Assembly: GCA_020848545.1 (NCBI GenBank)
Contig: JADLHZ010000104.1
Coordinates: 72,306-136,305, forward strand
Reading direction: 5' to 3'
Origin: Deltaproteobacteria bacterium
GTDB lineage: Bacteria > Myxococcota > JADLHZ01
Length of the DNA stretch: 64,000 bases
Every line of letters starts with the position of its first letter. The first letter of the stretch is position 1. Position numbers and translations under genes: made by a program. The notes beneath the pieces are model-generated. The model had not been told where the DNA came from, did no database searches, and was given only the letters and a program-made list of their open reading frames with translations. Below are positions 752-61,717 of the stretch, one piece after another.

Positions 752-3709
752 TCAGCATCGAAACAGCGCGATGCCTTGCTCGTACGCGAGAGCGCAGACG
801 AAGCCGTCGTCGATGGCCAGGACGGCGGCCTGCCCCACGCCGAGGCGGAGTGAAGAGGTCACCTGGATTGCGCCGTCCTCGGCGGTGCGCAGACGAACCT
901 TGTTGTCCTTGCCGAGACCGAGGCCACGAAAGTCCGTCGCCGTGCCAGCGTGGGTCGTGAGCCTGTCGAGATCCGTGAAAGCGATGGGCGTCGCCGCAAT
1001 GGTGCCGTCTGCGGCCACGGAAACATAGGCCGCCGCGGAGGTGCTCGAGGACGCTGCGTGCATGACGATGTCGCCGCCCATGGTGAACAGATCCGCGACG
1101 GTGCCGTCGAGCGGGCGCTCGAAGACCTTTGAGCCTGCCGAGTCCAGTCGTAGCAAACCGTATTTGGCAACGCTCGTGTCGTAGACGAGCAAGAGGGCTC
1201 CGGCGTCATCGGTTGCGCGTACGACCCTGGGATAGCGTGTGCCTAGCTGGACGAGCCCGTCGGTGCCGAAATCGGCGCACTCAACGCCTGTGTGCGCCTG
1301 CAGACACTGCAACGCGAAGGTGTCGAGCGCGCCGCCGACCGTCGCTGGTTGACGCAACGACAGAACGAGGCGCGCTTCGTCTCGGCTGAGCGCAGTGGGC
1401 GTCTGCCAGTAGCCGTCGACGACAGAGTGCAGGGTGACACTTCCGCCGGTACCGATCGTCGTCATCGGCGCCGCGGCGGCGTCGAGGAAATCGACGTGGG
1501 CGTCGGCGTAATCGTACCAAACATCGAAGAGTCGCCCGGAAGGCGTCGCGAGCACACGATGAAACGATCGCGCAGGGGTTCGGTGAGCGGAGACCGGCGC
1601 CTCCCGCGGAAGATCGGCGTCGAGCGTGGCCTCGATGATCTGCTGGTAGGCGTAGATCGTGTCGGCGTCCGGCATGGCGGCCGCGACGACGACGCGCCCG
1701 TCGCTCTTGCGCTGCGCGAGGCTCAGGCTCTGCGGCATGATCCCATGAAAGCCGCGCGTCACGGCGGACGACGACGAGAGCACGCCGTCGCGATCGAAGC
1801 GCCCGACCCACGCGCGCCGCTGGCTCAACCCATCCCGACCCGTGAGCAAGAAGTGGGTCGCATCGACGACCTTCGCGCTGCTGACGTCCGACCACGGCGC
1901 GGAGAGGCTCAGTGAGACGACTCCGCTCGAGCCGAAGCTCGTGTCGAGGCCCGCCGCGGTGAACGCTCGCAGCTCTTGCTGCGCGGCATTCGACGTGACG
2001 AGGATCATGCGGTCGTCGAGCCGAAGCAAGTGCGCCACGGTGTAGCGAGAGAGAGAGAACGCTCCGCCGCCCGCAAACGCTGCGTCGGCGCTGCCATCGG
2101 GTTGACGCCGCAAGAGCGTGGTGAAGCCCGTGCCACTGAGCGCGAGCCACAGATGTCCGCTCGGCTCGACCGCGAACCTCACGCGCGTCGCGTTGGGGCT
2201 CGAGACGGTCACGACGCCGCTGACTCCGAACGCGCTATCGTGCACGCCTTCACTGCTCAGGCGCACGATGCGCACGCCGCCGGCGCAGCCGGACGCCACC
2301 CACAAACGGCCGATCGTGTCTTGCTGAAGATCGAAGAGGGAGCACTCGGGCGAACCGAGCTCCACTCGCCCGTTGGAGCCGAAGACATCGGACGGCGTCG
2401 AGTCCATGGCGCTGCCGTCGTCGGGCGATCCGTCGTCGTTGAAGCGATGCAGCACTGTCGGTTTGTAGCCGGTGTCATGGCCTTTGACCGCGACGACCCA
2501 GCGCGCGTTTGGTTGTTGCAGGAGCTTCACGCCGTCGCTGTTGAGCCCGGATCCGGCGACCGGAATCTGGAGCGGCGCGAAGCCGGCCCTCGCCGAGCCG
2601 TCGTTGGCGAAACGGCGCAGCTCGACGACATTCGCTTGCGTTGCGTGCACGGCGGTCATCACGTCGCCGTTGCTCGCGCGGACGATCGCCGGCATCGTTC
2701 CGCTTGGAGCGTCAGACAAGCGAGTGACGCCGCTCGGATCCGCCCCGGGATCGCCGATGCGGCGCACCCCGCTCGCGTCTTCGCGCACGAGCCCGATCGC
2801 GTAGTTGAAGCCGAGCGGCGCGCGCATGATGGCCCAGTAGCCGTCCCCGTCAGGGATCGCGTCGAGATGAGCGATCGCCAAGCTGGACCCGGCCGAGAGC
2901 AGCCTCGTCAGGGCGGCGTAGCTGCGCAGCTCCGTGCGCTCAATGGTCCCGGACGCGTCGTCGCGGTAGCGCGCCTCGAAGTGTCCGAGCGGCTCTGCCG
3001 ACGAGCGGGGAATGAGCAGTGTCGTCAGCGTGCAGCTCTGGTTCGGCGCGAGCGACGCAGGGCAGTCGCTCACTGCATCCGTGTCGAAGGCAAGCTCGGT
3101 CGCTGCCGTGGCAGAGAACATCAGATCCAGCGCTGCGGCAGTGCCTTCGTTGCGAATCGTACGCGTGTCGAGCGCGGCTTCGCCTGGCCGCAGAACGTGG
3201 AAGGTGGGTGCGCTCGCCGTGAGCCGTGCGCGAGCGGGCAGCGCAAAGCCTTGCGCCCTCACGTTCACGGTGACGGAGCTCGCGGCCGATGCCGAACGCA
3301 GCTCGACGATGATCGGCGCGCTCATCGGGCCGATCACGTCGGCGGTCATCAGCACGGAAAACCCACAGGTGGCAGGCGCCGACAGTGGGTTCGCGCAGCT
3401 GATTGATTGTACCGCGGCGCGGGGGTCGAGGCTGACCACCGTAAGAGCGCCATCGCCCGACACGGCGCTTACCGTGAAATCGGCGCGGCGGCTCGCATGG
3501 ATCGGCTGCCTGCCGAGATCGATGAACGCGGGCGTGACGGTGATCAGCGGCGTATGAGGTCTAGAGGCGCCGTCGGTCGGCGCGGTGGCAGACTCCGCCG
3601 CCGGGTCGTCGTTGTTTGACGCATCCCCGCCGCGCGGGACGAGGCGCGACGACTGGCACTGACAGGCCGCAACGGTGAGAACACAGACAGACGCAATGAG
3701 GCGCAGCAT
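752..3709 (-). CDS. Large secreted lipoprotein, repeat-rich (985 aa), function unknown
   Basis: N-terminal signal peptide with lipobox-like LTVAAC; long Ser/Gly/Thr/Asp-rich body typical of beta-propeller or beta-sandwich surface proteins; longest ORF in the region. Confidence 0.6.
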   Translation of the reverse strand: MLRLIASVCVLTVAACQCQSSRLVPRGGDASNNDDPAAESATAPTDGASRPHTPLITVTPAFIDLGRQPIHASRRADFTVSAVSGDGALTVVSLDPRAAVQSISCANPLSAPATCGFSVLMTADVIGPMSAPIIVELRSASAASSVTVNVRAQGFALPARARLTASAPTFHVLRPGEAALDTRTIRNEGTAAALDLMFSATAATELAFDTDAVSDCPASLAPNQSCTLTTLLIPRSSAEPLGHFEARYRDDASGTIERTELRSYAALTRLLSAGSSLAIAHLDAIPDGDGYWAIMRAPLGFNYAIGLVREDASGVRRIGDPGADPSGVTRLSDAPSGTMPAIVRASNGDVMTAVHATQANVVELRRFANDGSARAGFAPLQIPVAGSGLNSDGVKLLQQPNARWVVAVKGHDTGYKPTVLHRFNDDGSPDDGSAMDSTPSDVFGSNGRVELGSPECSLFDLQQDTIGRLWVASGCAGGVRIVRLSSEGVHDSAFGVSGVVTVSSPNATRVRFAVEPSGHLWLALSGTGFTTLLRRQPDGSADAAFAGGGAFSLSRYTVAHLLRLDDRMILVTSNAAQQELRAFTAAGLDTSFGSSGVVSLSLSAPWSDVSSAKVVDATHFLLTGRDGLSQRRAWVGRFDRDGVLSSSSAVTRGFHGIMPQSLSLAQRKSDGRVVVAAAMPDADTIYAYQQIIEATLDADLPREAPVSAHRTPARSFHRVLATPSGRLFDVWYDYADAHVDFLDAAAAPMTTIGTGGSVTLHSVVDGYWQTPTALSRDEARLVLSLRQPATVGGALDTFALQCLQAHTGVECADFGTDGLVQLGTRYPRVVRATDDAGALLLVYDTSVAKYGLLRLDSAGSKVFERPLDGTVADLFTMGGDIVMHAASSSTSAAAYVSVAADGTIAATPIAFTDLDRLTTHAGTATDFRGLGLGKDNKVRLRTAEDGAIQVTSSLRLGVGQAAVLAIDDGFVCALAYEQGIALFRC

Positions 3710-3845: not shown

Positions 3846-4463
3846 TCAGCTTTTGCTCAGAAACACGCCCGTGAACCCGGCGGCGATCGACTTCGCGAGC
3901 TTGCGTCGCTCTGCGGCCGGTATCTGGCGAAGCGCAGTCTCCCGCATCGCACCTTCGGCGGCATGAAACGCGATGAACGCCCGTTGAGCCAGGGTCGCTC
4001 GCGGCAGGTGCGAGAAGAAGGGCTCGGCGAGTGACGCGATCTGCTCCTCGTAGACGGCGAAGATCCGCCGCATCACGTGGCTGCTCCCCGTCGCGTAGAG
4101 GTACTCTATGAGCACGGCCCGCACCGATGCATTGCGCGCATATTGCTCGAGCATGGCCGTCGCGAGCTCCTCGACGAGCGCCTCGAACCCGACACCTCGC
4201 TTGTCCGCCTGTAGCGAGAGGAACAGGGCAAGATCCTGCTCCATGTACGTTTCTGCCAGCACGACGAGCAGCGACCCCTTGTCGGAGAAGTACTGGTACA
4301 GCGAGCCGACGCTGACGCCGGCAACTTCGGCAATGCGCGTCGTCGTGACGGCGGCGCTGCCCTCGGTCAAGATGATCTTCTCGGCCGCCTCGAGCATCGC
4401 CGCGACGCTCAGCTGCGCCCGCGCTTGCTTGGGTCGCTTGCGAGTGACGGATCTCGGTTTCAT
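3846..4463 (-). CDS. TetR/AcrR family transcriptional regulator
   Basis: N-terminal HTH signature (AAVTTTRIAEVAGVSVGSLYQYFSDK) followed by a helical ligand-binding domain; 205 aa. Confidence 0.85.
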   Translation of the reverse strand: MKPRSVTRKRPKQARAQLSVAAMLEAAEKIILTEGSAAVTTTRIAEVAGVSVGSLYQYFSDKGSLLVVLAETYMEQDLALFLSLQADKRGVGFEALVEELATAMLEQYARNASVRAVLIEYLYATGSSHVMRRIFAVYEEQIASLAEPFFSHLPRATLAQRAFIAFHAAEGAMRETALRQIPAAERRKLAKSIAAGFTGVFLSKS

Positions 4464-4525: not shown

Positions 4526-5371
4526 GTGTCGCGCCAGCTTGGCGGCGGGACATCGATAATAGACACGTATGTCTGTTGTGAGGTATGGCGCCGCGTGCTT
4601 CGCTCCGAGCGAAACAAGGTCGCGCGCATTCTCGATTGGGCCGCCACGGGCGCGGCTGCCGGCGGCGTCTTCAGCGCGCTCGCCACCTTCGAGCTGGCGC
4701 AGCGGATCGCCATTCGCTTGGGGCCGCACGCGCACCAACGCACGGTCAGCGGCATGGCGCACGCGGTGAACTTGGCGGCGGGCCTCGCCGGCACGCGCTT
4801 TCGCGTCGAGGGCCTCGAGCACGTCGCGCCTGGCCGCAACTACGTGATCGTCTCGAACCACCAGTCGTTGCTCGACATCTCCATGTGCTCGCACTACCTG
4901 CGCGCGCTCCAGCCGCGTTACATCTCGAAGAAAGAGCTCGCCCGCGGTATCCCCGGCGTCTCGTTCAACATTCGGCGCGGCGGCTCGGCGGCGATCGATC
5001 GCAAGGATCCCGAGCAAGCGCACCAAGCGATCGCCGAGCTCGCGCGGCACGTTCACGAAGACGGATGGAGCGTGTGCATCTTCCCCGAGGGCACGCGCTC
5101 GAAGACCGGGACCATGCGCGCATTTCGCACCGGCGGTCTCCTCACGCTGCTCGCCAACGCGCCGGGTGTTCCCGTGCTGCCGGTGACGACGTCCGGCGGC
5201 TCGCGCCTCTTTGCGCACGGGCTGAAGCCGATCGTGCGCGGCGTCGAGCTGGTCTTTCGGGTTCACCCGTCGATGACGCCGCCGGATCCGCACGACGAGG
5301 CGGCGATGCGCGAGTTCCTGCGCGCGGTCGAGGAGACGATCGCGCGCGGCCTTCGCACGGAGCACGCATGA
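4526..5371 (+). CDS. 1-acyl-sn-glycerol-3-phosphate acyltransferase (PlsC/LPLAT family)
   Basis: Acyltransferase motifs NHQSLLD (HX4D block) and FPEGTRS; GTG start at 4526, true start uncertain. Confidence 0.8.
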   Translation: MSRQLGGGTSIIDTYVCCEVWRRVLRSERNKVARILDWAATGAAAGGVFSALATFELAQRIAIRLGPHAHQRTVSGMAHAVNLAAGLAGTRFRVEGLEHVAPGRNYVIVSNHQSLLDISMCSHYLRALQPRYISKKELARGIPGVSFNIRRGGSAAIDRKDPEQAHQAIAELARHVHEDGWSVCIFPEGTRSKTGTMRAFRTGGLLTLLANAPGVPVLPVTTSGGSRLFAHGLKPIVRGVELVFRVHPSMTPPDPHDEAAMREFLRAVEETIARGLRTEHA

Positions 5372-5841
5372 AGAAGTGGTTCATGGCGCTCGGTGCGGCG
5401 CTCGTCATCGCGGTGATCGCCTTCGTCGTCCACGAGCACCACGGCGGACACGACCACGCCGCCGGCGGAGACTCAGCGAAGCTCACGCTGCACGACGGCG
5501 CGAAGTGGGAGACCGACGCCCCGATGAAGGAAGAGATGGCCGCCATCAAGGACGAGGTCGCCGCGGCGCTCGGCGGTATTCGCGGCGGCGCCTACTCGCC
5601 CGAACAATACGGCGCGCTCGCTGACGCCATCGTGCGGCGGGTCAACGCCATCTTCAGCAAGTGCAAGCTGCCGCCCGAGGTCGACGCGCAGGCGCACCTC
5701 GTGCTCGGCGAGCTGCTCGCCGGCGCCGCGGCGATGAAGGGCGAAGGTGATCGGAGCGCCGGCGCTGCGAAGGTGGTCCGCGCCCTCGCTGCCTATGGCG
5801 ATCACTTCGCGCACCCGGGTTGGCAGCCGCTCGAGCGCTGA
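5368..5841 (+). CDS. Hypothetical membrane-anchored protein with His-rich segment
   Basis: ATG overlaps the upstream stop (ATGA); N-terminal hydrophobic helix (MKKWFMALGAALVIAVIAFVV) followed by HEHHGGHDH. Confidence 0.5.
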   Translation: MKKWFMALGAALVIAVIAFVVHEHHGGHDHAAGGDSAKLTLHDGAKWETDAPMKEEMAAIKDEVAAALGGIRGGAYSPEQYGALADAIVRRVNAIFSKCKLPPEVDAQAHLVLGELLAGAAAMKGEGDRSAGAAKVVRALAAYGDHFAHPGWQPLER

Positions 5842-5918
5842 GGCTCATCGCGCGGGACTTCGAGCAGGAACCTCGTCCGCGCCGCCTCCAGAGACGCACT
5901 GCCGCCGTGCCTGCGGTC

Positions 5919-7808
5919 CTAAGCGAGCTCCTTCGAATGCAAGGTCGGCATGCTCGTCGTGACGGTGGCGTCTTCGCGCGCGGTGTCGACCACTTGATCG
6001 ATGATGCGCACGATGTCGTCGACGTTGCGCGAGGTCTCTTCCGGACGCTCGCAGTGCTCGAAGTGCGGATAGTGGCCGCCGGTCGCGAAGCGGTGCACCT
6101 GCGCGCGGTGCATGCCGATCTTCTCGACCGCGGCCGACACGAGCATGCTCTCCTGCCAATGCGGATCACGCGCGCCGATGATGACCGAGCAGCGGGCGAG
6201 CTCGGCGACGGGCGCCGTCTTGGCGCTCGCGTTCATGCGGGTGATGTCCGCGAGCGCTCGCAGATCGGCGCGCGCGAGCTCGCGGGCGAAGATCGCCCGT
6301 TGCTCGGCGGTGAGGCCGCGCCATTCTTCACGTGCGTCAAGGGAGCGCGCAAGCCGGCGGAACAAGGACGGGAACCGGCGCGCGGCCTGAAACAACAGCG
6401 CGACGAGCGGCGCCATCACGGCGGCGCGCCGGTTGTGCTCGGGAAAGAGCGGCGTCAATGCCACGCGCGCGGTGTGGGGGTGCAGCGCGCGATCTTCCAA
6501 AGTCATCAGGCCGGTCGCGGCGAGCGAGTGCCCAACGAGCACGCGCGGCAGCCCTTCGATGCCGAGGACCTCGAGCCACGAGAGCAACGCCTGCGCCAGC
6601 GCGCCGGGTGAGGTCTGCGCGCGCGAACGGGCCGCCGAGAAGCGCGACTCGCCGAAGCCGTGCACGTCCGGCACGAGCACGATCGCCCGCGCGTTGTCAC
6701 GGCAGATCGCGAGGGCGATCCGCCGCCACGCCTCGCGCGTACACATCCACCCATGCGCAAGGACGACGGCGACGTCGGCGCGCGAGAACGCGTCGGCGGA
6801 GTCGATACGGCCGAGGCGGCCTTCGTGTCCGAAGACGGACCAGCCAAAGTCCTCGTAGGCGCTGCGCTCGCGAAAGCGCATCGACGCCTGCGCGATGTCG
6901 CCGTGCGCCGCTTCGAGATGGCGCAGGCGGTACCGTGCCTCGGCGATCTCCGGCGTGTGCGCGACTCGCGCGATCGGGTGCTCGGCCCAGCCGAACGGCC
7001 GCCGCGAGCGTACGCGGTCGGCCACGAGCACGTGCGGGCCGGTGGCCGACAGATCGATCGCGGACAGCGCCGCCGTGAGCTCGGCCACGCTCGCGAAGCG
7101 TTCGCCCGGCGCCTCTCTTGTGGCGCGTTCGAGGCACGCGACCAAATCGGGTGGCAGATCCACCGGCAGCTTCGCGCGCACGCTCGGCCAATCGTCCGGC
7201 AGCTCGTCGCCGGCGAGCGCGCGAAGGAGCGTGCGCCCGAGCGCATATTGATCCGCCGCCGGCGTCGCGCCGTCCCAGCCGCGCTGCTCGGGCGCCATGT
7301 AGCCGGGCGTGCCGATGGGGACGACCGCTCGCCCCGGGACGCGCTCATCGGTGAGCTGCGCGATACCGAAGTCGGCGAGGAACGCGTTGTCATGCCGATC
7401 GAGGAGGATGTTCGAAGGCTTCACGTCGCAATGCACGACGCCGCGTTCGTGCGCGTGCGCGAGGGCCGATCCGATCTGCATCGTGATGCGGACGGCTTCG
7501 GCCGGCTCCATCGGGGCGCGCAGCTTGTGCGTGAGATCGACGCCGTCGATGTACGCCATCGCGATGTGACCGTCGGCGAGCTCGTAGCGCGCCACGATGT
7601 GCGGATGCGCGAGCCGAGCGATCGCACGCCGCTCGGTCTCCAAGCTCTCGACGTTGCGGCGCTTGGTCGCGAGCGCCGGCGGGACGAGCTTCACGGCGAC
7701 GACGCCTCCCGTCTGCTCATGGCGTGCGAGCCACACCTCGCCCATGGCGCCGCGGCCGAGCCGGCGCTCGAGCAAGTACGGGCCCTTCTTGGCGGGCGTC
7801 TCGCTCAC
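5919..7808 (-). CDS. Ser/Thr protein kinase fused to a C-terminal alpha/beta-hydrolase-like domain
   Basis: Kinase subdomains GRGAMGEVW, VAVK, HCDVKPSNILL, DFG, GTPGYMAPE; C-terminal half has a hydrolase-like GHSLA nucleophile elbow. Confidence 0.85.
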   Translation of the reverse strand: MSETPAKKGPYLLERRLGRGAMGEVWLARHEQTGGVVAVKLVPPALATKRRNVESLETERRAIARLAHPHIVARYELADGHIAMAYIDGVDLTHKLRAPMEPAEAVRITMQIGSALAHAHERGVVHCDVKPSNILLDRHDNAFLADFGIAQLTDERVPGRAVVPIGTPGYMAPEQRGWDGATPAADQYALGRTLLRALAGDELPDDWPSVRAKLPVDLPPDLVACLERATREAPGERFASVAELTAALSAIDLSATGPHVLVADRVRSRRPFGWAEHPIARVAHTPEIAEARYRLRHLEAAHGDIAQASMRFRERSAYEDFGWSVFGHEGRLGRIDSADAFSRADVAVVLAHGWMCTREAWRRIALAICRDNARAIVLVPDVHGFGESRFSAARSRAQTSPGALAQALLSWLEVLGIEGLPRVLVGHSLAATGLMTLEDRALHPHTARVALTPLFPEHNRRAAVMAPLVALLFQAARRFPSLFRRLARSLDAREEWRGLTAEQRAIFARELARADLRALADITRMNASAKTAPVAELARCSVIIGARDPHWQESMLVSAAVEKIGMHRAQVHRFATGGHYPHFEHCERPEETSRNVDDIVRIIDQVVDTAREDATVTTSMPTLHSKELA

Positions 7809-9196
7809 GCGGAGGGCTTGTGCAGCGCGGCGAGGATGTCGGGCAGGAGCGCGAGCAGCGTGTGGCGCTCGTTCAGGCCCGGCTCTTCGAGCACGCGTTC
7901 GAGCAGCGCTTCGAGCACGTCGCGAACGATCCGCGACGGCTTCAGGGCGAGCGCTTGCATGACGTCGTTGCCGTCGATCGCGAGGTCCGTCACCTTCACC
8001 GCGCGCGACTTGCTCAGCACGTCGGTGATGCGCGTCTTCAGCGGCTCGAGCTCGCTCCGGGGATCTTCGCCTTGGCCGCGGCCGACGATGTCCGCCGCGC
8101 GCAGATCGAAGAGCGGCTCCAAGCGCTCCTCACCGACGCGACCGACGAAGCGGCGGACGGCGCCGTCGCTCCACGCGGGGTCGTACCAAAACATGTGGTT
8201 CTTCACGAGCGCCACGATGAGCTCGCGCTCTTCGTTCGAGAAGCGCAGGCGGCGCAGGATTTGATCCGACAGGTCGGCGCCGACGTGGTCGTGGCGATAA
8301 AAAGTGTTCTCGCCGGGAGCGCCTTCCTTCGGCGCGACGGTGCGCGGCTTGGCGATGTCGTGGAAGAGCGCGCCGAGCCGCGCGGTCCTCCCCACCGCCG
8401 CGTCGATGCATGCAATCGTGTGATCGTACACCGAGTACTTATGGAAGTGGTTCTGGTGCATGCCGACGCCTTCGAGCAGCTCCGGCAATACAATCGCGAG
8501 CAGGCCGCTCGTGCGCATCAGCTCGAACGCGATCGACGGCTTGTCGGTGTCCAAGATCTTCAAGAGCTCGTCGCGCAGACGTTCGACCGAGACCCTGCGA
8601 ACGACGTCCAGCGTCTCGCCGATCGCCGAGAACGTGCGCGCTTCGATCTGAAAGCCGAGCTGCGCCGCAAAACGCACCGCGCGCATCGGGCGCAGGCCGT
8701 CCTCGGAGAAGCGCTGCACCGCTGCGCCCACCGCGCGCAGGACCTTCCCGTCGAGATCCGTCTGACCGCCGTACGGATCAACGAGGCGATCGGCCGCGGG
8801 GTCGTAGGCGATGGCGTTTATCGTGAAGTCGCGTCGCGCGAGGTCGTCTTCGATCTTCGACTTGAACTCGACTTGGTCCGGGCGGCGGCCGTCGCTGTAA
8901 CCGACGTCGGCGCGGTAGGTCGTCACTTCGATCGGCTTGCCGGCGCCGCTCGAGTTCATCCACACGCTGATCGTCCCGTGCGCGATGCCGGTCGGCACCG
9001 TGAACGGAAAGAGCGTCGCCACCTTCTTGGGCAGCAGGTTCGTCGCGAGGTCGAAGTCGCCCGGCGTCTTGCCGAGCAGCACGTCCCGAACGGCGCCGCC
9101 GACGACGAACGCTTCGCCCCCCGCCCGGCGCAGGTTTTCCGCGGCGTCGTGGACCACCTGGGGGATGTTTCGAGGCTCAATGGAGCGACGCGTCAT
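7805..9196 (-). CDS. cca: CCA tRNA nucleotidyltransferase / poly(A) polymerase family with HD domain
   Basis: Pol-beta nucleotidyltransferase motif GGAVRD...GDFDLAT, RRDFTINA motif, and a downstream HD domain (HDIAK, RHDHVGADL); ATG start. Confidence 0.85.
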   Translation of the reverse strand: MTRRSIEPRNIPQVVHDAAENLRRAGGEAFVVGGAVRDVLLGKTPGDFDLATNLLPKKVATLFPFTVPTGIAHGTISVWMNSSGAGKPIEVTTYRADVGYSDGRRPDQVEFKSKIEDDLARRDFTINAIAYDPAADRLVDPYGGQTDLDGKVLRAVGAAVQRFSEDGLRPMRAVRFAAQLGFQIEARTFSAIGETLDVVRRVSVERLRDELLKILDTDKPSIAFELMRTSGLLAIVLPELLEGVGMHQNHFHKYSVYDHTIACIDAAVGRTARLGALFHDIAKPRTVAPKEGAPGENTFYRHDHVGADLSDQILRRLRFSNEERELIVALVKNHMFWYDPAWSDGAVRRFVGRVGEERLEPLFDLRAADIVGRGQGEDPRSELEPLKTRITDVLSKSRAVKVTDLAIDGNDVMQALALKPSRIVRDVLEALLERVLEEPGLNERHTLLALLPDILAALHKPSA

Positions 9197-10624: not shown

Positions 10625-10894
10625 GCCCGTCCTAGCGGGCGCCGGTCGCGCGGATGACAAAACATGGTGGACCGAACGCGACCGAGAGAGGCGAGGCGCC
10701 GACGTGTATCCTCGGCCAGGCACGAGCCCGGGCAGCAGCTCTCGCTGCCCCTCGGGATCTCGGCTCGTCACGGTCGCGCCCCGCGCCTGCGCCACACGGG
10801 TGAGTCGCGCTTCGTTCAGCGGCCGACCGCCGAGCGCTTCGCCGCGGCGCTGCTGACCCAGCACGATCCGGCGAAGGCCGCTTCGAAGCGCGCG

Positions 10895-11638
10895 ATGAAG
10901 GCGCTGCTCTTGGCGGTGGCGCTCGCGCTGGTCGCCACGTCGACGCTCGTGTGGAGCTCAGTCACGTGGAACGACGCGCCGGTGCGCGAAGGCATGCTCG
11001 GCGCGATCGATGCGGCGTTGACCCGCGCGATCGATCGCCTCGTCGCCGGCCGCTGGCGCCCCGCGCCGGCATCGTTTCGTGACTTCGCCGATCAAACGCT
11101 GGCGCCGACGTTGACGGCGCCCCGTTTCTCGCTCGACACGCGCGGCGCGGTGCGATCGATCTTCGCCGAGCGCTCGAAGCTCGAGCTGAAGGACGCCGTG
11201 CGCGTGGCCGATGCCCTCGTCGACGAAGCGCAGGCGGTGGGCATCGATCCGCTCTTGCTCGTCGCGGTGATCGACGTCGAGAGCAAGTTCGATCATCAGG
11301 CGACCTCGCTGCGCGGCGCGCGCGGCCTCATGCAGCTCATGCCCGAAACGCGCGCGTGGATGATCGATCGCACGCCCGAGCTGTGGAGCGAGACCGGCAA
11401 AGACGACGCGCTCTCGCCGGAGTCGAACGTCCGCGTCGGCGTGCGCTACTTCGCGCATCTGAAGAAGGGCTTTCGCCGCTTGGACCACCTGCTGCAAGCG
11501 TACAACTGCGGTCCCGGGCGGCTCGTCGAGATCTTGAGCGGCAAGGCGGTGTTGCCGGAAGAGACGAAGTTCTATGCCGAGCGCGTGCAACGGATCTACT
11601 CGCGTTTGCGCCGCGACTTCGTGTACGCAAAGACGTGA
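10895..11638 (+). CDS. Lytic transglycosylase (SLT domain), secreted
   Basis: Signal peptide MKALLLAVALALVATS; SLT motifs LMQLMPETR and AYNCGPGR; start moved to an internal ATG because the upstream ORF extension is Arg-rich. Confidence 0.75.
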   Translation: MKALLLAVALALVATSTLVWSSVTWNDAPVREGMLGAIDAALTRAIDRLVAGRWRPAPASFRDFADQTLAPTLTAPRFSLDTRGAVRSIFAERSKLELKDAVRVADALVDEAQAVGIDPLLLVAVIDVESKFDHQATSLRGARGLMQLMPETRAWMIDRTPELWSETGKDDALSPESNVRVGVRYFAHLKKGFRRLDHLLQAYNCGPGRLVEILSGKAVLPEETKFYAERVQRIYSRLRRDFVYAKT

Positions 11639-12777
11639 TCGCGCTCGTCTTCGTCTTCTTGCAAGCGGCGCCGGCCTTTGTCCGCGTGCATGCCGCTGAA
11701 CCTGTGACATCGTACGCGAACGTGCCGGGGCTCGCGCTCTTGGCTGCGGCGCCGACGCGCGCGTTCTTCCGTCCGCTCGTGACGGCGCTCGAGGCCGCGC
11801 GCGTCCCTGGTCCGTTGCCGAAGGCGCTCGGCTGCAACCGCGACGCCGTCCTCTCCGTCGACTTCGACGTGGCTGGCTGGCTCACGGAGATGGCGCAGCA
11901 TCCGGACGGCCATGAACGTGCGATTCGGGTGCTCAGCGCGCTCGGCGTGTCCGACGCGCAGCGCTTCGTCGCCTGCGTGGTGCCGACGAAGAAGGGCGTC
12001 GACCTCCGCGGCCGGCTCGTGCTCGCGCGTTGGAGCGGCATGCTCGCAAGCGTCGGCGCCCCGGAGCTCACGAAGCTGCGTTTTGCCAAGGACGCCTACT
12101 GGTCCGCATCGGCATCGCTCGCGTGGCCCGACGCGTTTCGCGCGGTGAAGCAGATCGACAAAGCGTGGGCGAATACTCGCGGCTCGCGCTTGGACGCTGC
12201 GATCGCCGCGTCGTCGACCCTGCTCGACGTCGACTTCGAGCGCGCGTTCGTGGCGCCGCTCACCGGCCGCTTCGACGTGGCGCTCGTCTACCGCGCGGCG
12301 ACCAAAGAAGCGGCGATGGTCGCGGTTGCCGACGCGAAGAGCACCGCCGACGCTGCGCGCGTGCTCGCGGTCACCGAAGAGACGATGCCGCGCGCGAGCT
12401 TCGATCGCACTCGGCAGAAGAACGAGTGGGGCTTCGTCGCCGGCGTCGAGCCCTTGTTCGTCCGCTTGGGCGCGACCGAGATGCGCGCGGCGAACGCAGC
12501 GTTTGCGCTGGCGCTCGCGCCCGACAACCTGGCGGCGACCGACGGCGCGGCGTCGGTGCTCGGCTTCGTCGACGTCGGCCGCTACCGCCGCTTGTACGAG
12601 CGCGTCGGGCGCATCGAGGATACGACGGCGCTCGTGCGAGAGCTTCATCTCGCCGGGGCGGTCGACATGCAAAAGACGCCTCACCCCAAAGCGCTCTTCG
12701 TTGGGGTCGAGAAGTGTGAAGCGGCGTTGAAGCGCGGCGAAAGCGAGCTTTCGTTCACCTTGCGGTGCGTGCGCTAG
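11635..12777 (+). CDS. Hypothetical protein
   Basis: Protein-like composition, unlike the Arg-rich opposite-strand ORF; putative GTG start overlapping the upstream stop; no motif recognised. Confidence 0.4.
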   Translation: MIALVFVFLQAAPAFVRVHAAEPVTSYANVPGLALLAAAPTRAFFRPLVTALEAARVPGPLPKALGCNRDAVLSVDFDVAGWLTEMAQHPDGHERAIRVLSALGVSDAQRFVACVVPTKKGVDLRGRLVLARWSGMLASVGAPELTKLRFAKDAYWSASASLAWPDAFRAVKQIDKAWANTRGSRLDAAIAASSTLLDVDFERAFVAPLTGRFDVALVYRAATKEAAMVAVADAKSTADAARVLAVTEETMPRASFDRTRQKNEWGFVAGVEPLFVRLGATEMRAANAAFALALAPDNLAATDGAASVLGFVDVGRYRRLYERVGRIEDTTALVRELHLAGAVDMQKTPHPKALFVGVEKCEAALKRGESELSFTLRCVR

Positions 12778-15740
12778 GCCGTCTCGGGCGCGAACCCACG
12801 GCGCATCGTGTTCTCGGTGACGACGCGCGGCTCGACGAACTGCAAGAGGTAATCGGGCCCGCCGGCCTTGCTGCCGATGCCGCTGAGCTTGAAGCCGCCG
12901 AACGGCTGCCGGCCGACGATGGCGCCGGTCGTGCCGCGGTTCAAGTACAGATTGCCGACGCGAAACTCTGTGCGCGCGCGCTTCAGGTTGTCGGGGCTGC
13001 GCGAGAACACGCCGCCGGTCAGCGCGTACTTCGTGCCGTTGGCGATCTGCAGCGCCTCGTCGAAGTCTTTCGCCTTGATCACGGCCAAGACGGGGCCGAA
13101 GAGCTCTTCTTGCGCCAGCTTGTCCTGCGGATCCACGCCGGTGAAGATCGTCGGCGGGACGTAGTAGCCTTCAGCGTCGCTCGGATCCTTGCCGATGACC
13201 CGCGGGTAGCGGGCGGCGCCGTCTTTGATCGCGCCGGCGAGCCGCGCGAACGCTTCGCGATCGACGACAGGACCGAGGCTCGACGGCGGCGCCTCCGGCC
13301 GGCCGAGGACCAGGGTCTCGGTCGCGCTGACGAGCCGCTCCACGAGCTCGTCGTGGCGATCTTGCAGCACGATCACGCGCGAGCACGCCGAGCACTTTTG
13401 GCCGGCGAAGCCGAACGCCGAGTGCACGACGCCGAGCACGGCCTCGTCGAGATCGGCGTCGCTGTCGACGATGATCGCGTTCTTGCCGCCGAGCTCCAAG
13501 ATCACTTTGCGAATGTGATCCTGTCCGCCCGACAGCACTGAGCTCTCGCGCAAAATGTGCATGCCGACTTCGCGTGAGCCGGTGAACGCCACGAGCGCGA
13601 CGTCCGGCGACGCGACGAGCTCGGCGCCGACTTCTTCGCCGCGACCGGGCAAGAACTGCAGCGCGCCTTCCGGGACGCCGGCTTGGCGCAAGATCCGATA
13701 GACGCGCAGCGCGATCGCGCTCGCTTGCTCCGCCGGCTTCATGACGACGGTGTTGCCGGTGACGAGCGCCGCGGTCACCATGCCGGTCAAAATCGCGCAC
13801 GGAAAGTTCCACGGCGCCACGACGGCTGCCACGCCGCGTGCTTCGTAGGTGAGCCTGTTGTCTTCGCCGGGGACGTCGCCTTGCTTGCTACCAGCGAAGA
13901 GGCGCACCGCCTCCCGCGCGTAGTATTCGCAAAAATCGATCGCTTCGATGACGTCGCCGTCGGCTTCGCGCGCGGTCTTGCCGACTTCGTAGACCATGAG
14001 CGCCGAAAGCTCGTGCCGCTCTTCGCGCATGATCCGCGCCGCGGCGAGCAAGATGTTCGCGCGCTCTTCGACGCTGCGATCGCGCCAGGCAGGAAACGCG
14101 CGCTTGCACGAGGCGATCGCCTGTTGCGCCTGCGCCTTCGTCGCGTAGCCGACCTCCGCGACGACATCGTTCAGCGCCGCCGGGTTCTCGCGCTTCTCGA
14201 TCGCCGCCGGCGATTGCTCCTTGCCGTCGATCACCGGCGCGACGCGCATCGGCAGCGAAGCCTTCACCGTGTGCAGCGCTTTGCTGAAGCGCTCGCGCGT
14301 ATCACGATCGGCGAAGTCGAGCGGGGGATCGTTCGCGAAGGGCTCACCCAACGTCCGCGCGCGCGGCTTCTCCTGCTTCGGCGGCGCGTAGGGTTGCGGC
14401 TCCTGCAGGAGTTGATCGAGTGTCTTCGCCTCGACGAAGCGTTGCCGTAAGAAGCCCTCGTTCGACGTGTTTTCGAGCAAACGCCGCACGAGATACGCCA
14501 TGCCCGGAAGCAACGCGCCGACCGGCGCATACACGCGCACCCGCTCGCCGAGCGCCACGAGCGCGCGGCGGATCGGCTCTGCCATGCCGTAGAGCATCTG
14601 CACTTCGTACGCGCGCTCGGGCAGCTTGTGGCGCTTGGCATACGCGATCGCGTGCGACACCGAGCGCAAGTTGTGCGAGCCGACCGCGAGGCGCACGTGC
14701 GGATAATTGTCGAGCAAGAGCTCCGCGATCTTCTCGTAGCTCGCGTCGGTCTCGTGCTTCTTCTCGAACACCGGCACGCGCCAGCCCTTTTGCGCGGCCT
14801 GCACCGTCTCGTAGTCCCAGTATGCGCCCTTCACCAGGCGAATCGTGAACGGCTGCTTCGTCTTCTTCGCGAGCTTCACCAGGCTCTCGGCGTCTTCGTA
14901 TGCGTCCTTCAAGTACGCTTGCACGACGACGCCGAGGTGAGGCCATCCTTCGAGCTCCGGCAGCGCGCGCAGGCGGCGGAACACCTCGAAGGTCAGTTCC
15001 TTCAGCGCGTACTGCTCGAGATCCAAGTTGATGAACACGCCGGCCTGGCGCGCGCGCACGAGCAGCGGCTTCACGCGCTCGACCAACGCCTGCACGGAAG
15101 CTTCGAAGGCGAGGGGATCGATCGCGGAATAGAACGAGCTGAGCTTGATGCTGACGTTGACCTTGGGAATGTCGCCGAGGGCGTCCTTGTCGAGCACGTT
15201 GTTCGTGCTCCAAGACTTCGCCGCTTCGCTCACTCGATCGATCGCGTCGATGTAGCGCTTGATGTACACCTGGCTCTCACGCTCGCTGACCGCCGCCTCG
15301 CCGAGCAGATCGAGCGTGAAGCCCACGTTTTCTTTGCGCAGCTCTTCGAAGACGGCGATCGCCTGATCGTAGCTCTCGCCGACGATGAACTTCTTCGCCA
15401 TGTCGGTGATCTGCGCGTTGATCTGGCCGCCGCCGAGCTTCTGGCCGATGCCGGTGCCGAGCGTCTTGATCGACAGCGCGATCGGCGCGGGCAGATCCAG
15501 TCCCTCGCGCAGAAAGTACTCGCGCAGGTGCTGCGCCACTTGCTCCGGTGTCTTCAGCACGCTGAACACGTCGACGAAGCGGAAGAGCTCGACCTTGAAC
15601 GCCGGGTCCTTCATCGAGAACTCGAGCATGCGCCCGGTCCAAAAGTCCTTGTTGAAGACGCCCGGGCTCTCTTTCTTGCTGAGCTCGGTGAGGCGCTCGG
15701 CGATCTCGCGAATGCTCTTTTCGACTGCTTTGTCCGCCAT
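12774..15740 (-). CDS. putA: Bifunctional proline dehydrogenase / L-glutamate-gamma-semialdehyde (P5C) dehydrogenase
   Basis: 988 aa; N-terminal proline dehydrogenase barrel and C-terminal aldehyde dehydrogenase domain (ELGGKNA, catalytic Cys in FGFAGQKCSACSR); ATG start. Confidence 0.9.
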   Translation of the reverse strand: MADKAVEKSIREIAERLTELSKKESPGVFNKDFWTGRMLEFSMKDPAFKVELFRFVDVFSVLKTPEQVAQHLREYFLREGLDLPAPIALSIKTLGTGIGQKLGGGQINAQITDMAKKFIVGESYDQAIAVFEELRKENVGFTLDLLGEAAVSERESQVYIKRYIDAIDRVSEAAKSWSTNNVLDKDALGDIPKVNVSIKLSSFYSAIDPLAFEASVQALVERVKPLLVRARQAGVFINLDLEQYALKELTFEVFRRLRALPELEGWPHLGVVVQAYLKDAYEDAESLVKLAKKTKQPFTIRLVKGAYWDYETVQAAQKGWRVPVFEKKHETDASYEKIAELLLDNYPHVRLAVGSHNLRSVSHAIAYAKRHKLPERAYEVQMLYGMAEPIRRALVALGERVRVYAPVGALLPGMAYLVRRLLENTSNEGFLRQRFVEAKTLDQLLQEPQPYAPPKQEKPRARTLGEPFANDPPLDFADRDTRERFSKALHTVKASLPMRVAPVIDGKEQSPAAIEKRENPAALNDVVAEVGYATKAQAQQAIASCKRAFPAWRDRSVEERANILLAAARIMREERHELSALMVYEVGKTAREADGDVIEAIDFCEYYAREAVRLFAGSKQGDVPGEDNRLTYEARGVAAVVAPWNFPCAILTGMVTAALVTGNTVVMKPAEQASAIALRVYRILRQAGVPEGALQFLPGRGEEVGAELVASPDVALVAFTGSREVGMHILRESSVLSGGQDHIRKVILELGGKNAIIVDSDADLDEAVLGVVHSAFGFAGQKCSACSRVIVLQDRHDELVERLVSATETLVLGRPEAPPSSLGPVVDREAFARLAGAIKDGAARYPRVIGKDPSDAEGYYVPPTIFTGVDPQDKLAQEELFGPVLAVIKAKDFDEALQIANGTKYALTGGVFSRSPDNLKRARTEFRVGNLYLNRGTTGAIVGRQPFGGFKLSGIGSKAGGPDYLLQFVEPRVVTENTMRRGFAPETA

Positions 15741-16687: not shown

Positions 16688-17617
16688 TCACGCCTCGCCG
16701 CGGACTTTGACCTCGAACGACTCGAGCTTCATGCCTTTCTTCTCGAACATGCGCATGAACAAACCCTTCGACGAGTCGAGCAGGTTCTTCGCGTTTTTGT
16801 CCTTCATCGTGAAGGCGATCTTCAGCTTCTTGTCCTTGTCGATCGTCACGCGCAAAGAACCGCCGCCGAGCGCGTCGTCCTTCAGCTGGATCTGAAACTC
16901 GTTCATGCCTTGGGTCGACATGACGGCGACCTGATCGACCAGCTTCTGCATCACCGGCTGCGGGATACGCTCGCCGGCCGCCGCTCTCATCGTCTTGCCG
17001 ATCGCCACCTTGCCGGCGTTCTGGGCGTTGTCCGTCTTCGTCGACGAGCCTGCACCGCCGGCCTTCGCCGCGCCGCCGAGGCCGCCGACGGTCTTCTCGT
17101 CGTCGCGCTTGTCTTGTTGCTGGCCCTGCTGCCCCGACTGCTGCTGGCCGGGCTGCTGCTGGCTCTGCCCTTGACCCTGCTGATCCTTCTGCTTGTCGTC
17201 GTCCTTCTGCACCGGCGCATCGAAGCGTTGCTCCGCCTGCGTCTGTTGAATCGCGTCTTCCTTCGACTCGACCGAGTCCATCTCCCGCTTCTCGGAGTCG
17301 GTGCTGAGGTCCTTCTCGCGCGACGTCGTCGTGTCCCTGTCGGTTTTCGTGTCGTCGTCGCGGTTCTTCACCAAGCGCTCGGCCTGCGTGCGGCCGGCGA
17401 TGCCTTGGCGTGACATCAGCAAGTTCTGGTTGAAGCTCTTTTGCTGCTGCTGGTTCTTCGTCTGCGCTTCGTTCTTTTGCGTCTGGGTGTTCTTCGACGC
17501 GAAGGTCGCCTTGAACTTGACCGCCGCCGCTTCTTTTTCCTTCTCGGTCTTCTGATTCTGGAGCTTCTTCTGGTCGATGACCTCTTGGGTCCGCCGCTCC
17601 TCGACTCTGTCGCTCAT
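16688..17617 (-). CDS. FliK/SctP-like hook or needle length-control protein
   Basis: Internal ATG overlapping the upstream stop (ATGA); Gln/Lys-rich low-complexity region then a Flg_hook-like C-terminal domain (EFQIQLKDDALGGGSLRVTIDKD...); sits after the FliJ-like gene. Confidence 0.6.
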   Translation of the reverse strand: MSDRVEERRTQEVIDQKKLQNQKTEKEKEAAAVKFKATFASKNTQTQKNEAQTKNQQQQKSFNQNLLMSRQGIAGRTQAERLVKNRDDDTKTDRDTTTSREKDLSTDSEKREMDSVESKEDAIQQTQAEQRFDAPVQKDDDKQKDQQGQGQSQQQPGQQQSGQQGQQQDKRDDEKTVGGLGGAAKAGGAGSSTKTDNAQNAGKVAIGKTMRAAAGERIPQPVMQKLVDQVAVMSTQGMNEFQIQLKDDALGGGSLRVTIDKDKKLKIAFTMKDKNAKNLLDSSKGLFMRMFEKKGMKLESFEVKVRGEA

Positions 17618-18114
17618 TGGCCGCTCCGATTTCTCTCGAAGATCGTCTGCGCCAGATCGTCGAGTTGGTCCTCTTCTTTCAGCTGCATCTCGCGCTTCAC
17701 TTCGGCGATCCACTTCTCGTAGTGCTTCTCGAGCGCCTTGACGTCCTGCGTCGCTTGCACCATCGCGTCCATCGCCGCCTTCTCCGCTTCCTTCTTCTCC
17801 TCGATCACGACCTTCTGCTGCTCGATGCGCTCTTTCTGCAGCTCTTCTTCTTCCTTCAGTCGCTCGATGAACGTGTTGGCCGACATCGCGAGCTGCGCGT
17901 TGTGCTCTCCGCGCATTTGCTTGTCCGCGTATTCGCGCCGCTTCAGCTCGCGCCGCTCGATCATGCGGCGCAGCTCCTCTTCCATTTCCTTGAGCTTGAG
18001 CTCCTCTGCCTCGCGCGCTTTCTTGGCCTCGGACCACGCCTTTTCCGCTTCTTCCTTCTTACGCTCTTTGATCTCCTTGAGCGTTTTGAGCGGATAGTCC
18101 GGCAGCTTCGCCAT
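17614..18114 (-). CDS. FliJ/SctO-like export stalk protein
   Basis: 166 aa highly charged coiled coil immediately downstream of the ATPase, the conserved FliJ/SctO position. Confidence 0.65.
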   Translation of the reverse strand: MAKLPDYPLKTLKEIKERKKEEAEKAWSEAKKAREAEELKLKEMEEELRRMIERRELKRREYADKQMRGEHNAQLAMSANTFIERLKEEEELQKERIEQQKVVIEEKKEAEKAAMDAMVQATQDVKALEKHYEKWIAEVKREMQLKEEDQLDDLAQTIFERNRSGQ

Positions 18115-18182
18115 GAGGCAATGCTACATCGTTCTACACGACCCGCGCTACCTTTGGCTGTCTCTAAAATCTATTGAATCGA

Positions 18183-19592: not shown

Positions 19593-19595
19593 CGT

Positions 19596-31619: not shown

Positions 31620-31648
<29 letters not shown>
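31070..31648 (-). CDS. Secreted hypothetical protein
   Basis: Signal peptide, several Cys pairs; stop overlaps the downstream start. Confidence 0.45.
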
Positions 31649-33437
<1,789 letters not shown>

Positions 33438-34325: not shown

Positions 34326-36080
<1,755 letters not shown>

Positions 36081-55066: not shown

Positions 55067-55206
55067 GGAAGGACCTCGGCTCTCTTCCACGAGCAAGCAC
55101 AGTGCCAGATGCATGGCGCTTGACGGGTTGGCGCTACCAACCAAGCTGATGCGACTTCATGCTGGGCGAGCCACAGTGGCTCGCCCAGCGCGCTGGCCAC
55201 GCGCGG

Positions 55207-61645: not shown

Positions 61646-61717
61646 GTGTCAGTATCCGACGTGGCGTTCAAATTGCGATGTCCATTTTGCGTCACGCGCG
61701 CCCGGGGTGCGCGCCGC

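What the first reader, a model, noticed from the sequence alone, without database searches (positions are those of the whole stretch)
5919..7808. Ser/Thr kinase fused to an alpha/beta-hydrolase-like domain
A single 629 aa ORF joins a complete Hanks-type kinase domain to a C-terminal domain with a GHSLA nucleophile-elbow motif, an uncommon pairing that could couple phosphosignalling to a hydrolytic or ligand-sensing function. Its start overlaps the stop of the cca gene.
Basis: partly seen in the sequence, partly recalled or inferred. Interest (0 to 1): 0.4.

Follow-up and report, generated by a model that had tools for sequence, protein, structure and literature searches.

The report
Myxobacterial kinase fused to RsbQ-like hydrolase
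This is a real gene for a soluble bacterial Ser/Thr protein kinase joined to an apparently catalytically intact alpha/beta-hydrolase domain; it belongs to a conserved but unstudied family, named only from myxobacteria so far, and the hydrolase half most resembles the small-molecule receptor enzymes RsbQ/KAI2/D14, so it probably acts as a built-in ligand sensor for the kinase.

Summary
Its GTG start overlaps the cca stop by 4 nt. Pfam finds Pkinase (E 3.6e-36) and Abhydrolase_6 (E 1.3e-15). All kinase catalytic residues are present, with HCD in place of HRD. The hydrolase triad S428/D548/H579 and the HG motif are invariant or nearly so across more than 100 full-length homologues (39-48% identity). 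Every homologue that carries an organism name is from Myxococcota. AlphaFold2 gives pLDDT 93 and pTM 0.93 for the whole chain, which implies one rigid two-domain body. The C-terminal part is a canonical capped alpha/beta hydrolase. So the fusion is real and conserved, not a one-off. It is still rare: 137 hits among 1.84 billion representative proteins. A family profile of the hydrolase module hits B. subtilis RsbQ best in the PDB (E 1e-12), followed by KAI2/D14 receptors. The cap is the most variable region, the activation loop is acidic, and gene neighbourhood is not conserved. The best reading (about 0.45) is a cytoplasmic one-component sensor kinase gated by ligand binding or hydrolysis in the hydrolase domain. 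I found no literature on this family. Interest is moderate.

The parts
5919..7808 (-). Whole gene: 629-aa kinase/alpha-beta-hydrolase fusion protein, GTG start, stop codon at 5919-5921
   Evidence: ORF list and translation. GC3 is 0.88. An identical protein is in NCBI as 'MAG: protein kinase [Deltaproteobacteria bacterium]'.
7047..7781 (-). Hanks-type Ser/Thr kinase domain, residues about 10-254. Key residues: G-loop 18-23, K40 (7689-7691), E59, H126-C127-D128 (D128 at 7425-7427), N133, D146-F-G (7371-7373), T167, A-P-E174, D186, R237.
   Evidence: Pfam Pkinase E 3.6e-36. The catalytic residues are invariant in 103-120 homologues. Foldseek matches PknI/PknB with TMt about 0.8. Codons checked.
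6774..7046 (-). Conserved N-terminal extension of the hydrolase module, residues 255-345. It holds a helix, a beta-hairpin and an inserted helical pair. R267 and G333 are invariant; W274, R331, L332 and R343 are nearly invariant. It links the two domains.
   Evidence: Conservation. Secondary structure with pLDDT above 90. The same extension is present in stand-alone 343-385 aa hydrolase relatives.
6444..6773 (-). Alpha/beta-hydrolase core, N-terminal half, residues 346-455. It holds the H352-G353 oxyanion motif, the G426-H-S428-L-A430 nucleophile elbow (S428 at 6525-6527) and invariant R448.
   Evidence: Pfam Abhydrolase_6. S428 is invariant in 120/120 sequences. Foldseek.
6207..6443 (-). Four-helix cap (lid) domain, residues 456-534. 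This is the most variable part of the protein.
   Evidence: DSSP helices at 460-476, 480-492, 501-513 and 516-527 between strands 446-451 and 540-544. Column entropy is 2.66 bits against 1.4-2.0 elsewhere.
5955..6206 (-). Alpha/beta-hydrolase core, C-terminal half, residues 535-618. It holds catalytic D548 (6165-6167) and H579 (6072-6074), followed by a long C-terminal helix (589-618).
   Evidence: D548 is conserved in 120/120 and H579 in 119/120 sequences. The triad columns align with those of RsbQ.
7805..9196 (-). Upstream cca (CCA-adding tRNA nucleotidyltransferase with HD domain). Its TGA stop overlaps the kinase GTG start, so the two are probably co-transcribed or translationally coupled in this genome only.
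   Evidence: Pfam PolyA_pol, PolyA_pol_RNAbd and HD; NCBIfam TIGR02692 E 7e-82, below its cut-off. Junction sequence. cca is not adjacent in any of 7 homologue loci.

Best explanation
The gene encodes a soluble (no membrane segment was noticed on reading the sequence; no predictor was run), one-polypeptide sensor kinase. Its N-terminal half is a catalytically competent Hanks-type Ser/Thr kinase. Its C-terminal 375 residues are a capped alpha/beta-hydrolase module with an intact Ser428-Asp548-His579 triad. By profile, this module is closest to the receptor-hydrolases RsbQ, KAI2 and D14. The proposed mechanism is inferred, not shown. A small hydrophobic ester or lactone-type ligand enters the pocket under the variable four-helix cap and is bound, and probably hydrolysed. 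The resulting change in the cap and core passes through the conserved 90-residue extension, which packs the two domains into one rigid body. That switches the kinase, which then phosphorylates unknown cytoplasmic targets. Shown here: both domains, their catalytic residues, their conservation as a fixed architecture, the fold, and the rigid-body prediction. Inferred: the direction of information flow (hydrolase to kinase), the nature of the ligand, and the targets.
For: The architecture is conserved in at least 120 clusters at 90% identity, all with 86-99% query coverage; every named source is Myxococcota (Polyangia, Kofleriaceae, Polyangiaceae, Myxococcales). Full-length AF2 gives pLDDT 93.3 and pTM 0.93, the same pTM as the C-terminal part alone, so the inter-domain geometry is confidently predicted. 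The hydrolase fold is confirmed. A profile of 20 C-terminal modules ranks RsbQ first in the PDB (E 9.9e-13, near full length). KAI2, D14 and HTL fill most of the list, and hhalign gives 97.8% probability with the triad columns aligned. The precedent is real: RsbQ signals to the PP2C phosphatase RsbP, hydrolyses butenolides and is modified on its catalytic His (bioRxiv 10.1101/2023.12.05.570042). The cap is the most variable region while the triad is invariant, as expected if specificity diversifies. The activation loop is D/E-rich and has no conserved Ser/Thr apart from the GT threonine; this protein and 7 others are non-RD (HCD or HGD). That pattern fits regulation by something other than activation-loop phosphorylation. 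The layout of N-terminal kinase plus C-terminal sensor is the usual one for bacterial Hanks kinases (established knowledge, e.g. PknB-PASTA, PknD beta-propeller). In the exhaustive search the module is almost never found apart from the kinase.
Against: No ligand, substrate or target is known, and no experiment exists. RsbQ leads generic esterases by only 6-10 bits, and Foldseek gives a flat list of esterases, lactonases, dehalogenases, epoxide hydrolases and KAI2. The residue after the HG motif, which aligns with RsbQ Phe29 (chain numbering; probably the pocket residue the RsbQ paper calls F27, an offset I inferred), varies in this family (W/T/M/L/G). An invariant triad fits an ordinary enzyme equally well. 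Gene neighbourhoods give no functional clue. I could not inspect model coordinates or PAE, so the triad geometry and the interface were not measured.
Confidence: 0.45

Rival explanations
1. It is a bifunctional enzyme in which the hydrolase is the output. The kinase would regulate the esterase, lipase or thioesterase activity of its own C-terminal domain, for example by autophosphorylation. Alternatively, both activities act on the same target or pathway.
For: The triad and HG motif are strictly conserved, as in working enzymes. The rigid two-domain model would also allow control in cis. The nearest structural neighbours include many plain esterases and lactonases. A PlsC-type acyltransferase gene lies convergent downstream in this window.
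Against: The acyltransferase neighbour is absent from all 7 homologue loci examined. The family has no conserved Ser/Thr-rich segment that would look like a regulatory phospho-site cluster. Bacterial Hanks kinases normally carry sensor domains, not effector domains, at the C-terminus (established knowledge). The variable cap suggests changing ligands rather than one housekeeping substrate.
Confidence: 0.27
2. The hydrolase domain is a non-signalling scaffold, serving for dimerisation, localisation or substrate docking. Its catalytic residues would be retained for structural reasons or for an unrelated side activity.
For: Alpha/beta-hydrolase folds are sometimes used as protein-interaction modules (established knowledge). 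The extension and core are well conserved while the cap drifts.
Against: Invariance of Ser in 120/120, Asp in 120/120 and His in 119/120 sequences, plus the HG motif, at 39-48% overall identity is hard to explain without catalysis.
Confidence: 0.1
3. It is an artefact: two separate genes joined by a frameshift, an assembly error or a mis-called ORF.
For: None beyond the general possibility in metagenome-assembled sequence.
Against: More than 100 independent full-length homologues from many samples have the same architecture and length. Seven were seen in their own contigs. Coding GC3 is continuous. The single-chain model is confident, with a conserved linker module.
Confidence: 0.01

Closest known systems
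RsbQ-RsbP energy-stress module of Bacillus subtilis (alpha/beta-hydrolase RsbQ plus PAS-PP2C phosphatase RsbP)
   Same: A small capped Ser-His-Asp alpha/beta hydrolase is coupled to Ser/Thr phosphosignalling. RsbQ is the best PDB match of the family profile (E 9.9e-13; hhalign 97.8%), with the triad aligned. RsbQ acts as a ligand-perceiving hydrolase.
   Different: In B. subtilis there are two proteins in an operon, and the partner is a phosphatase with a PAS domain. Here there is one polypeptide, the partner is a Hanks kinase, and there is no PAS domain. This module has an extra 90-residue N-terminal extension. The residue after the HG motif, aligned with the RsbQ Phe, is variable. Sequence identity is only about 19%.
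Plant KAI2 / D14 / HTL butenolide receptor-hydrolases
   Same: They share the fold class, the four-helix lid, a GHS(V/M/L)x(A/G)-type elbow and a GHxPH(L/x) His motif. They fill most of the profile hit list and appear among the Foldseek hits.
   Different: The plant receptors signal through the F-box protein MAX2 and SMXL degradation, not through a fused kinase. Similarity is distant (E 1e-10 to 1e-4), and membership of the clade was not established.
Bacterial Hanks-type kinases with C-terminal sensor domains (PknB/StkP-PASTA, PknD beta-propeller, PknG-TPR)
   Same: The kinase domain is closest to these (StkP, PknE, PknB and PknA by profile E 1e-59 to 1e-51; PknI/PknB TMt about 0.8). The logic of kinase at the N-terminus and sensor at the C-terminus is the same.
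   Different: No transmembrane helix was noticed on reading the sequence (no predictor was run). The sensor is an enzyme fold with an intact active site. The score against the PASTA-kinase equivalog is 146 bits against a cut-off of 450. The activation loop is acidic and this copy is non-RD (HCD).
Stand-alone 'extended' alpha/beta hydrolases of 343-385 aa (unnamed; P0183, P0188, P0192, P0200, P0204, P0207, P0241)
   Same: They share the N-terminal extension, HGW, PDVNGFG, the VGHSMGG elbow, and the Asp and His positions. P0183 and P0207 were confirmed as complete genes.
   Different: They have no kinase domain. They are only weakly similar (E 1e-11 to 1e-4) and have a different His motif (GDHYFFS).

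Membership tests
Hanks-type (eukaryote-like) Ser/Thr protein kinase | Match to the Pkinase profile above the curated threshold | tested here: met
   PF00069 scores 125.3 bits against a cut-off of 31.7, at residues 13-202.
Hanks-type (eukaryote-like) Ser/Thr protein kinase | Catalytic signature residues: GxGxxG, VAIK Lys, alphaC Glu, HRD Asp, Asn, DFG, APE, subdomain IX Asp, subdomain XI Arg | tested here: met
   G18-G23, K40, E59, D128, N133, D146FG, APE174, D186 and R237 are all present and invariant in the family. HRD is HCD here (non-RD; 6 of 120 sequences have Cys).
Hanks-type (eukaryote-like) Ser/Thr protein kinase | Bilobal kinase fold | tested here: met
   The AF2 model matches PknI and PknB with TMt 0.76-0.82 and probability 1.00.
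PASTA kinase (PknB/Stk1 equivalog NF033483) | Whole-protein score above the curated cut-off, with TM helix and PASTA repeats | tested here: not met
   The score is 146 bits against a cut-off of 450, and only the kinase domain aligns.
Alpha/beta-hydrolase fold superfamily | Profile match above threshold | tested here: met
   PF12697 Abhydrolase_6 scores 59.1 bits against 26.3, and all 20 of 20 sampled family members match.
Alpha/beta-hydrolase fold superfamily | Nucleophile elbow Sm-x-Nu-x-Sm, and triad order nucleophile-acid-His on the canonical loops | tested here: met
   G426-H-S428-L-A430 follows strand 422-427, D548 follows strand 540-544 and H579 follows strand 571-573. Ser and Asp are invariant and His is 119/120.
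Alpha/beta-hydrolase fold superfamily | Fold | tested here: met
   The C-terminal model (pLDDT 93.6) gave 966 PDB matches at E<=1e-3. The 50 best listed are nearly all alpha/beta hydrolases, with TMt up to 0.73.
RsbQ / KAI2 / D14 receptor-hydrolase clade | Closest relatives by sequence, or placement inside the clade | tested here: inconclusive
   RsbQ is the top PDB hit of the family profile (51 bits), but unrelated esterases score 40-44 bits. The Foldseek order is flat. No phylogeny was made.
RsbQ / KAI2 / D14 receptor-hydrolase clade | Four-helix V-shaped lid inserted after strand beta6 | tested here: met
   Four helices (460-476, 480-492, 501-513, 516-527) lie between strands 446-451 and 540-544. 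Lids of this kind also occur in BioH- and MenH-type enzymes, so this feature is not specific.
RsbQ / KAI2 / D14 receptor-hydrolase clade | Conserved aromatic pocket residue after the oxyanion motif (F27 in the RsbQ paper; Phe29 in PDB chain numbering, an offset I inferred) | tested here: not met
   The aligned position (residue 354) is W here and varies in the family: W36, T18, M16, L16, G12.
RsbQ / KAI2 / D14 receptor-hydrolase clade | Butenolide hydrolysis with covalent modification of the catalytic His, and ligand-dependent partner binding | not testable with these tools
   This needs biochemistry.
BioH / MenH / HsaD and other named hydrolase equivalogs (NCBIfam) | Score above the curated cut-off | tested here: not met
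   All matches are far below their cut-offs: for this protein BioH scores 17.8 against 207 and HsaD 20.5 against 400; MenH matches 10 of the 20 family members only weakly (best E 2.7e-07).

The most novel reading that the evidence does not exclude
This family would be a one-component receptor kinase for a diffusible lactone or butenolide-type signal. An RsbQ/KAI2-like receptor-hydrolase would be hard-wired to a Hanks kinase, so that ligand hydrolysis directly gates Ser/Thr phosphorylation in myxobacteria. It would be a bacterial counterpart of plant strigolactone/karrikin perception with a phosphorylation output. It would also be a simple system for learning how receptor-hydrolases transmit a signal and what their natural ligands are.
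Probability: 0.2. Interest if true: 0.7.

Novelty: new variant of a known kind. Interest (0 to 1): 0.42.

Why it matters
Bacterial Hanks kinases are known with many sensor domains. A conserved fusion to a catalytically intact RsbQ/KAI2-like alpha/beta hydrolase has not been described in anything I could find. If the hydrolase is the sensor, the protein holds the receptor and its output in one soluble chain. That makes it experimentally easy to ask how ligand hydrolysis in a receptor-hydrolase is turned into a signal. The natural ligands of RsbQ and KAI2 are still unknown, so such a system could be informative. It would also add a chemical-sensing input to the very large, mostly unassigned myxobacterial kinome. 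If it proves to be a kinase-regulated esterase, it is a modest addition to enzyme regulation.

Tried and rejected
1. The genome-contig scan with the full-length alignment chose generic kinase motifs. It returned 80 unrelated kinases, none with the hydrolase module (tblastn).
2. The word-indexed homologue search with the C-terminal part alone found only 5 proteins. The exhaustive HMMER search replaced it.
3. The PDB profile search with alignment A2 was dominated by kinase columns. It was redone with trimmed sequences (A3).
4. Full-length Foldseek returned only kinases (TMq at most 0.35), so no solved two-domain analogue exists.
5. Conserved gene neighbours were sought in 7 homologue loci, and flanking hypothetical proteins were compared by BLAST. 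Nothing was shared, and there was no cca, PP2C or FHA partner.
6. Literature searches for kinase/alpha-beta-hydrolase fusions, the myxobacterial kinome, and RsbQ in myxobacteria found no description. Perez et al. 2008 (PMC2572974) is not held.
7. Organism names for homologues on long contigs were not available.
8. Model coordinates are not exposed to scripts, so triad distances, pocket lining and the domain interface could not be measured.
9. The 547-bp convergent gap downstream (5372-5918) has no Rfam match and only one weak, unconvincing terminator-like match (5547-5535, minus strand).
10. Assembly or frameshift artefact was rejected, as set out under the rival explanations.

Full report
**Observation.** The ORF exists exactly at 5919..7808, but on the minus strand (629 aa, GTG start). 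Its codon-position GC (0.73/0.51/0.88) matches real genes in this roughly 67% GC window, and overlapping ORFs in other frames do not show that pattern. The upstream gene (7805-9196, minus strand) is a CCA-adding enzyme with PolyA_pol, an RNA-binding domain and an HD domain. Its TGA overlaps the kinase GTG as GTGA. No alternative start is sensible, because the kinase G-loop begins at residue 18 and homologues have 8-18 residues before it.

**Domains.** Pfam gives Pkinase at residues 13-202 (E 3.6e-36) and Abhydrolase_6 at 348-591 (E 1.3e-15), both well above their gathering scores. NCBIfam gives only sub-threshold matches to named kinase and hydrolase families.
- Kinase motifs are complete: G18-R-G-A-M-G23, K40, E59, H126-C-D128, N133, D146-F-G, T167, A-P-E174, D186 and R237.
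- HRD is HCD here, a non-RD variant found in 6 of 120 family members.
- The hydrolase has H352-G353 (oxyanion motif), G426-H-S428-L-A430 (nucleophile elbow), D548 and H579.

**Family.** The identical protein is already in NCBI as 'MAG: protein kinase [Deltaproteobacteria bacterium]'.
- The next 119 hits (39-48% identity, 86-99% coverage, E below 1e-113) all carry a kinase domain plus an alpha/beta-hydrolase domain. Every source that gives an organism name says Polyangia, Kofleriaceae, Polyangiaceae, Myxococcales or Deltaproteobacteria.
- In alignments of 103-120 members, all kinase catalytic residues, S428 and D548 are invariant. H579 is 119/120 and H352/G353 are above 97%.
- An exhaustive HMMER scan of 1.84 billion representative proteins with residues 255-629 found only 137 hits at E<=1e-3, of which 51 were at E<=1e-30.
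- Thirty-six of those are 598-706 aa proteins with the match beginning at residue 228-295, which means they are fused.
- Most of the shorter strong hits are truncated fusions that still carry kinase C-lobe remnants.
- The pairing is therefore rare in sequence space, but it forms a coherent, conserved family and is not a one-off or an artefact.

**Structure.** AF2 on the full chain with the family alignment gives mean pLDDT 93.3 and pTM 0.93. The C-terminal 375 residues alone give 93.6 and 0.93. A pTM this high for a 629-residue two-domain chain implies that the relative placement of the domains is predicted confidently. This is an inference, because the PAE was not available.
- Foldseek with the whole model finds only kinase domains (PknI, PknB, PknA; TMt about 0.8) and no two-domain analogue.
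- The C-terminal model matches canonical capped alpha/beta hydrolases at probability 1.00 and TMt 0.55-0.73. These include RPA1511, a feruloyl esterase, ZHD lactonase, dehalogenases, epoxide hydrolases and ShHTL7/KAI2/D14, and no family clearly wins.
- Four helices (460-527) form a lid between strands 446-451 and 540-544.
- Residues 255-345 are not a loose linker. They are a structured, conserved extension in which R267 and G333 are invariant and W274, R331, L332 and R343 are nearly so.
- The same extension occurs in weakly related stand-alone hydrolases of 343-385 aa. P0183 and P0207 were confirmed as complete genes.

**Which hydrolases is it closest to?** A profile of 20 trimmed C-terminal modules ranks B. 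subtilis RsbQ first in the PDB (E 9.9e-13, residues 23-259 of 271). PpKAI2-like H comes next, and KAI2, D14 and HTL receptors fill most of the remaining list. A few generic esterases score 40-44 bits against 51 for RsbQ. hhalign against the RsbQ segment gives 97.8% probability, with Ser, Asp and His aligned. RsbQ is the ligand-perceiving hydrolase that works with the PP2C phosphatase RsbP, hydrolyses butenolides and becomes modified on its catalytic His (bioRxiv 10.1101/2023.12.05.570042). The resemblance is a lead, not proof of membership: the margin is small, the PDB is rich in D14/KAI2 entries, and the position aligned with the RsbQ pocket Phe is variable here.

**Further features bearing on mechanism.**
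- Column entropy is lowest in the kinase (1.41 bits), intermediate in the extension and core (1.66-1.99) and highest in the cap (2.66). Only 21% of cap positions are identical to the query. So the pocket lid diversifies while the triad stays fixed.
- The activation loop is D/E-rich and has no conserved Ser/Thr apart from the GT threonine. This suggests control by something other than loop phosphorylation.
- No transmembrane segment was noticed on reading the sequence. This was not tested with a predictor.
- Neighbourhoods in 7 homologue loci differ: methylmalonyl-CoA mutase/MeaB and an aldo-keto reductase; a PPIase; rhodanese and M13 peptidase; DHFR/thymidylate synthase; DJ-1. None has cca, and the flanking hypothetical proteins are unrelated. 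This agrees with the reported poor synteny of myxobacterial kinases (PMC2887360). The cca overlap is therefore local and says nothing about function.

**Interpretation.** The best-supported reading (about 0.45) is a cytoplasmic one-component sensor kinase, in which ligand binding or hydrolysis in the RsbQ/KAI2-like module regulates the kinase through the conserved extension. The main rival (about 0.27) reverses the direction, with the hydrolase as a kinase-regulated enzyme. A purely structural role for the hydrolase (about 0.1) fits poorly with the invariant triad. An artefact is excluded.

**Novelty.** The protein is annotated in databases only as 'protein kinase' or 'alpha/beta fold hydrolase'. 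I found no paper describing the fusion. It is a new variant of a known kind, namely a Hanks kinase with a C-terminal sensor domain. It is of moderate interest, and of higher interest if the receptor-hydrolase link holds.

Noticed in passing
window 17614-26344, minus strand: A run of type III secretion or flagellar-export-like genes: an EscN-type ATPase (18183-19592), a weak FliG_C-like match (20303-21322), a YscJ/FliF ring lipoprotein (21382-22242) and a sigma-70 family factor (22970-23749). The region has lower GC (0.60-0.63) and a strongly negative AT skew.
   Followed up: partly
window 34326-36080 (-) and 51323-52837 (+): Two more Hanks-type kinase genes (Pkinase E 1.5e-47 and 1e-33), each with a C-terminal region that has no Pfam match. 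With the finding, that makes three such kinases in 64 kb.
   Followed up: partly
window 31620-33437 (-), 57189-59543 (+), 44642-46399 (-), 61532-63817 (+): Dense signalling content: a GAF sigma54 activator, a second sigma54 activator with a roughly 460-aa unassigned N-terminus, a HAMP histidine kinase with a weak, sub-threshold dCache match, and an sCache-HAMP hybrid histidine kinase.
   Followed up: no
window 752-3709 (-), 36137-37687 (-), 46429-47847 (-), 52901-55144 (-): Four large ORFs of 985, 516, 472 and 747 aa. Three have coding-like GC3 of 0.82-0.89, while 52901-55144 was not picked up by the GC3 filter. None has any Pfam match.
   Followed up: no
window 5372-5918: An unusually long (547 bp) gap between the convergent ends of the PlsC-type acyltransferase gene (4526-5371, +) and the kinase gene. 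It has no Rfam match and no convincing terminator, and the ORFs inside it lack coding-like GC3.
   Followed up: partly
window 7428-7430 (residue C127): This copy has HCD instead of HRD in the catalytic loop (a non-RD kinase). Only 6 of 120 family members have Cys here and 2 have Gly; the rest keep Arg.
   Followed up: partly
window 3846-4463 (-), 4526-5371 (+), 10664-11638 (+), 12774-15740 (-), 27518-29551 (+): Ordinary neighbours: a TetR regulator, a PlsC-type acyltransferase, an SLT lytic transglycosylase, trifunctional PutA and a DUF255 thioredoxin-like protein.
   Followed up: no
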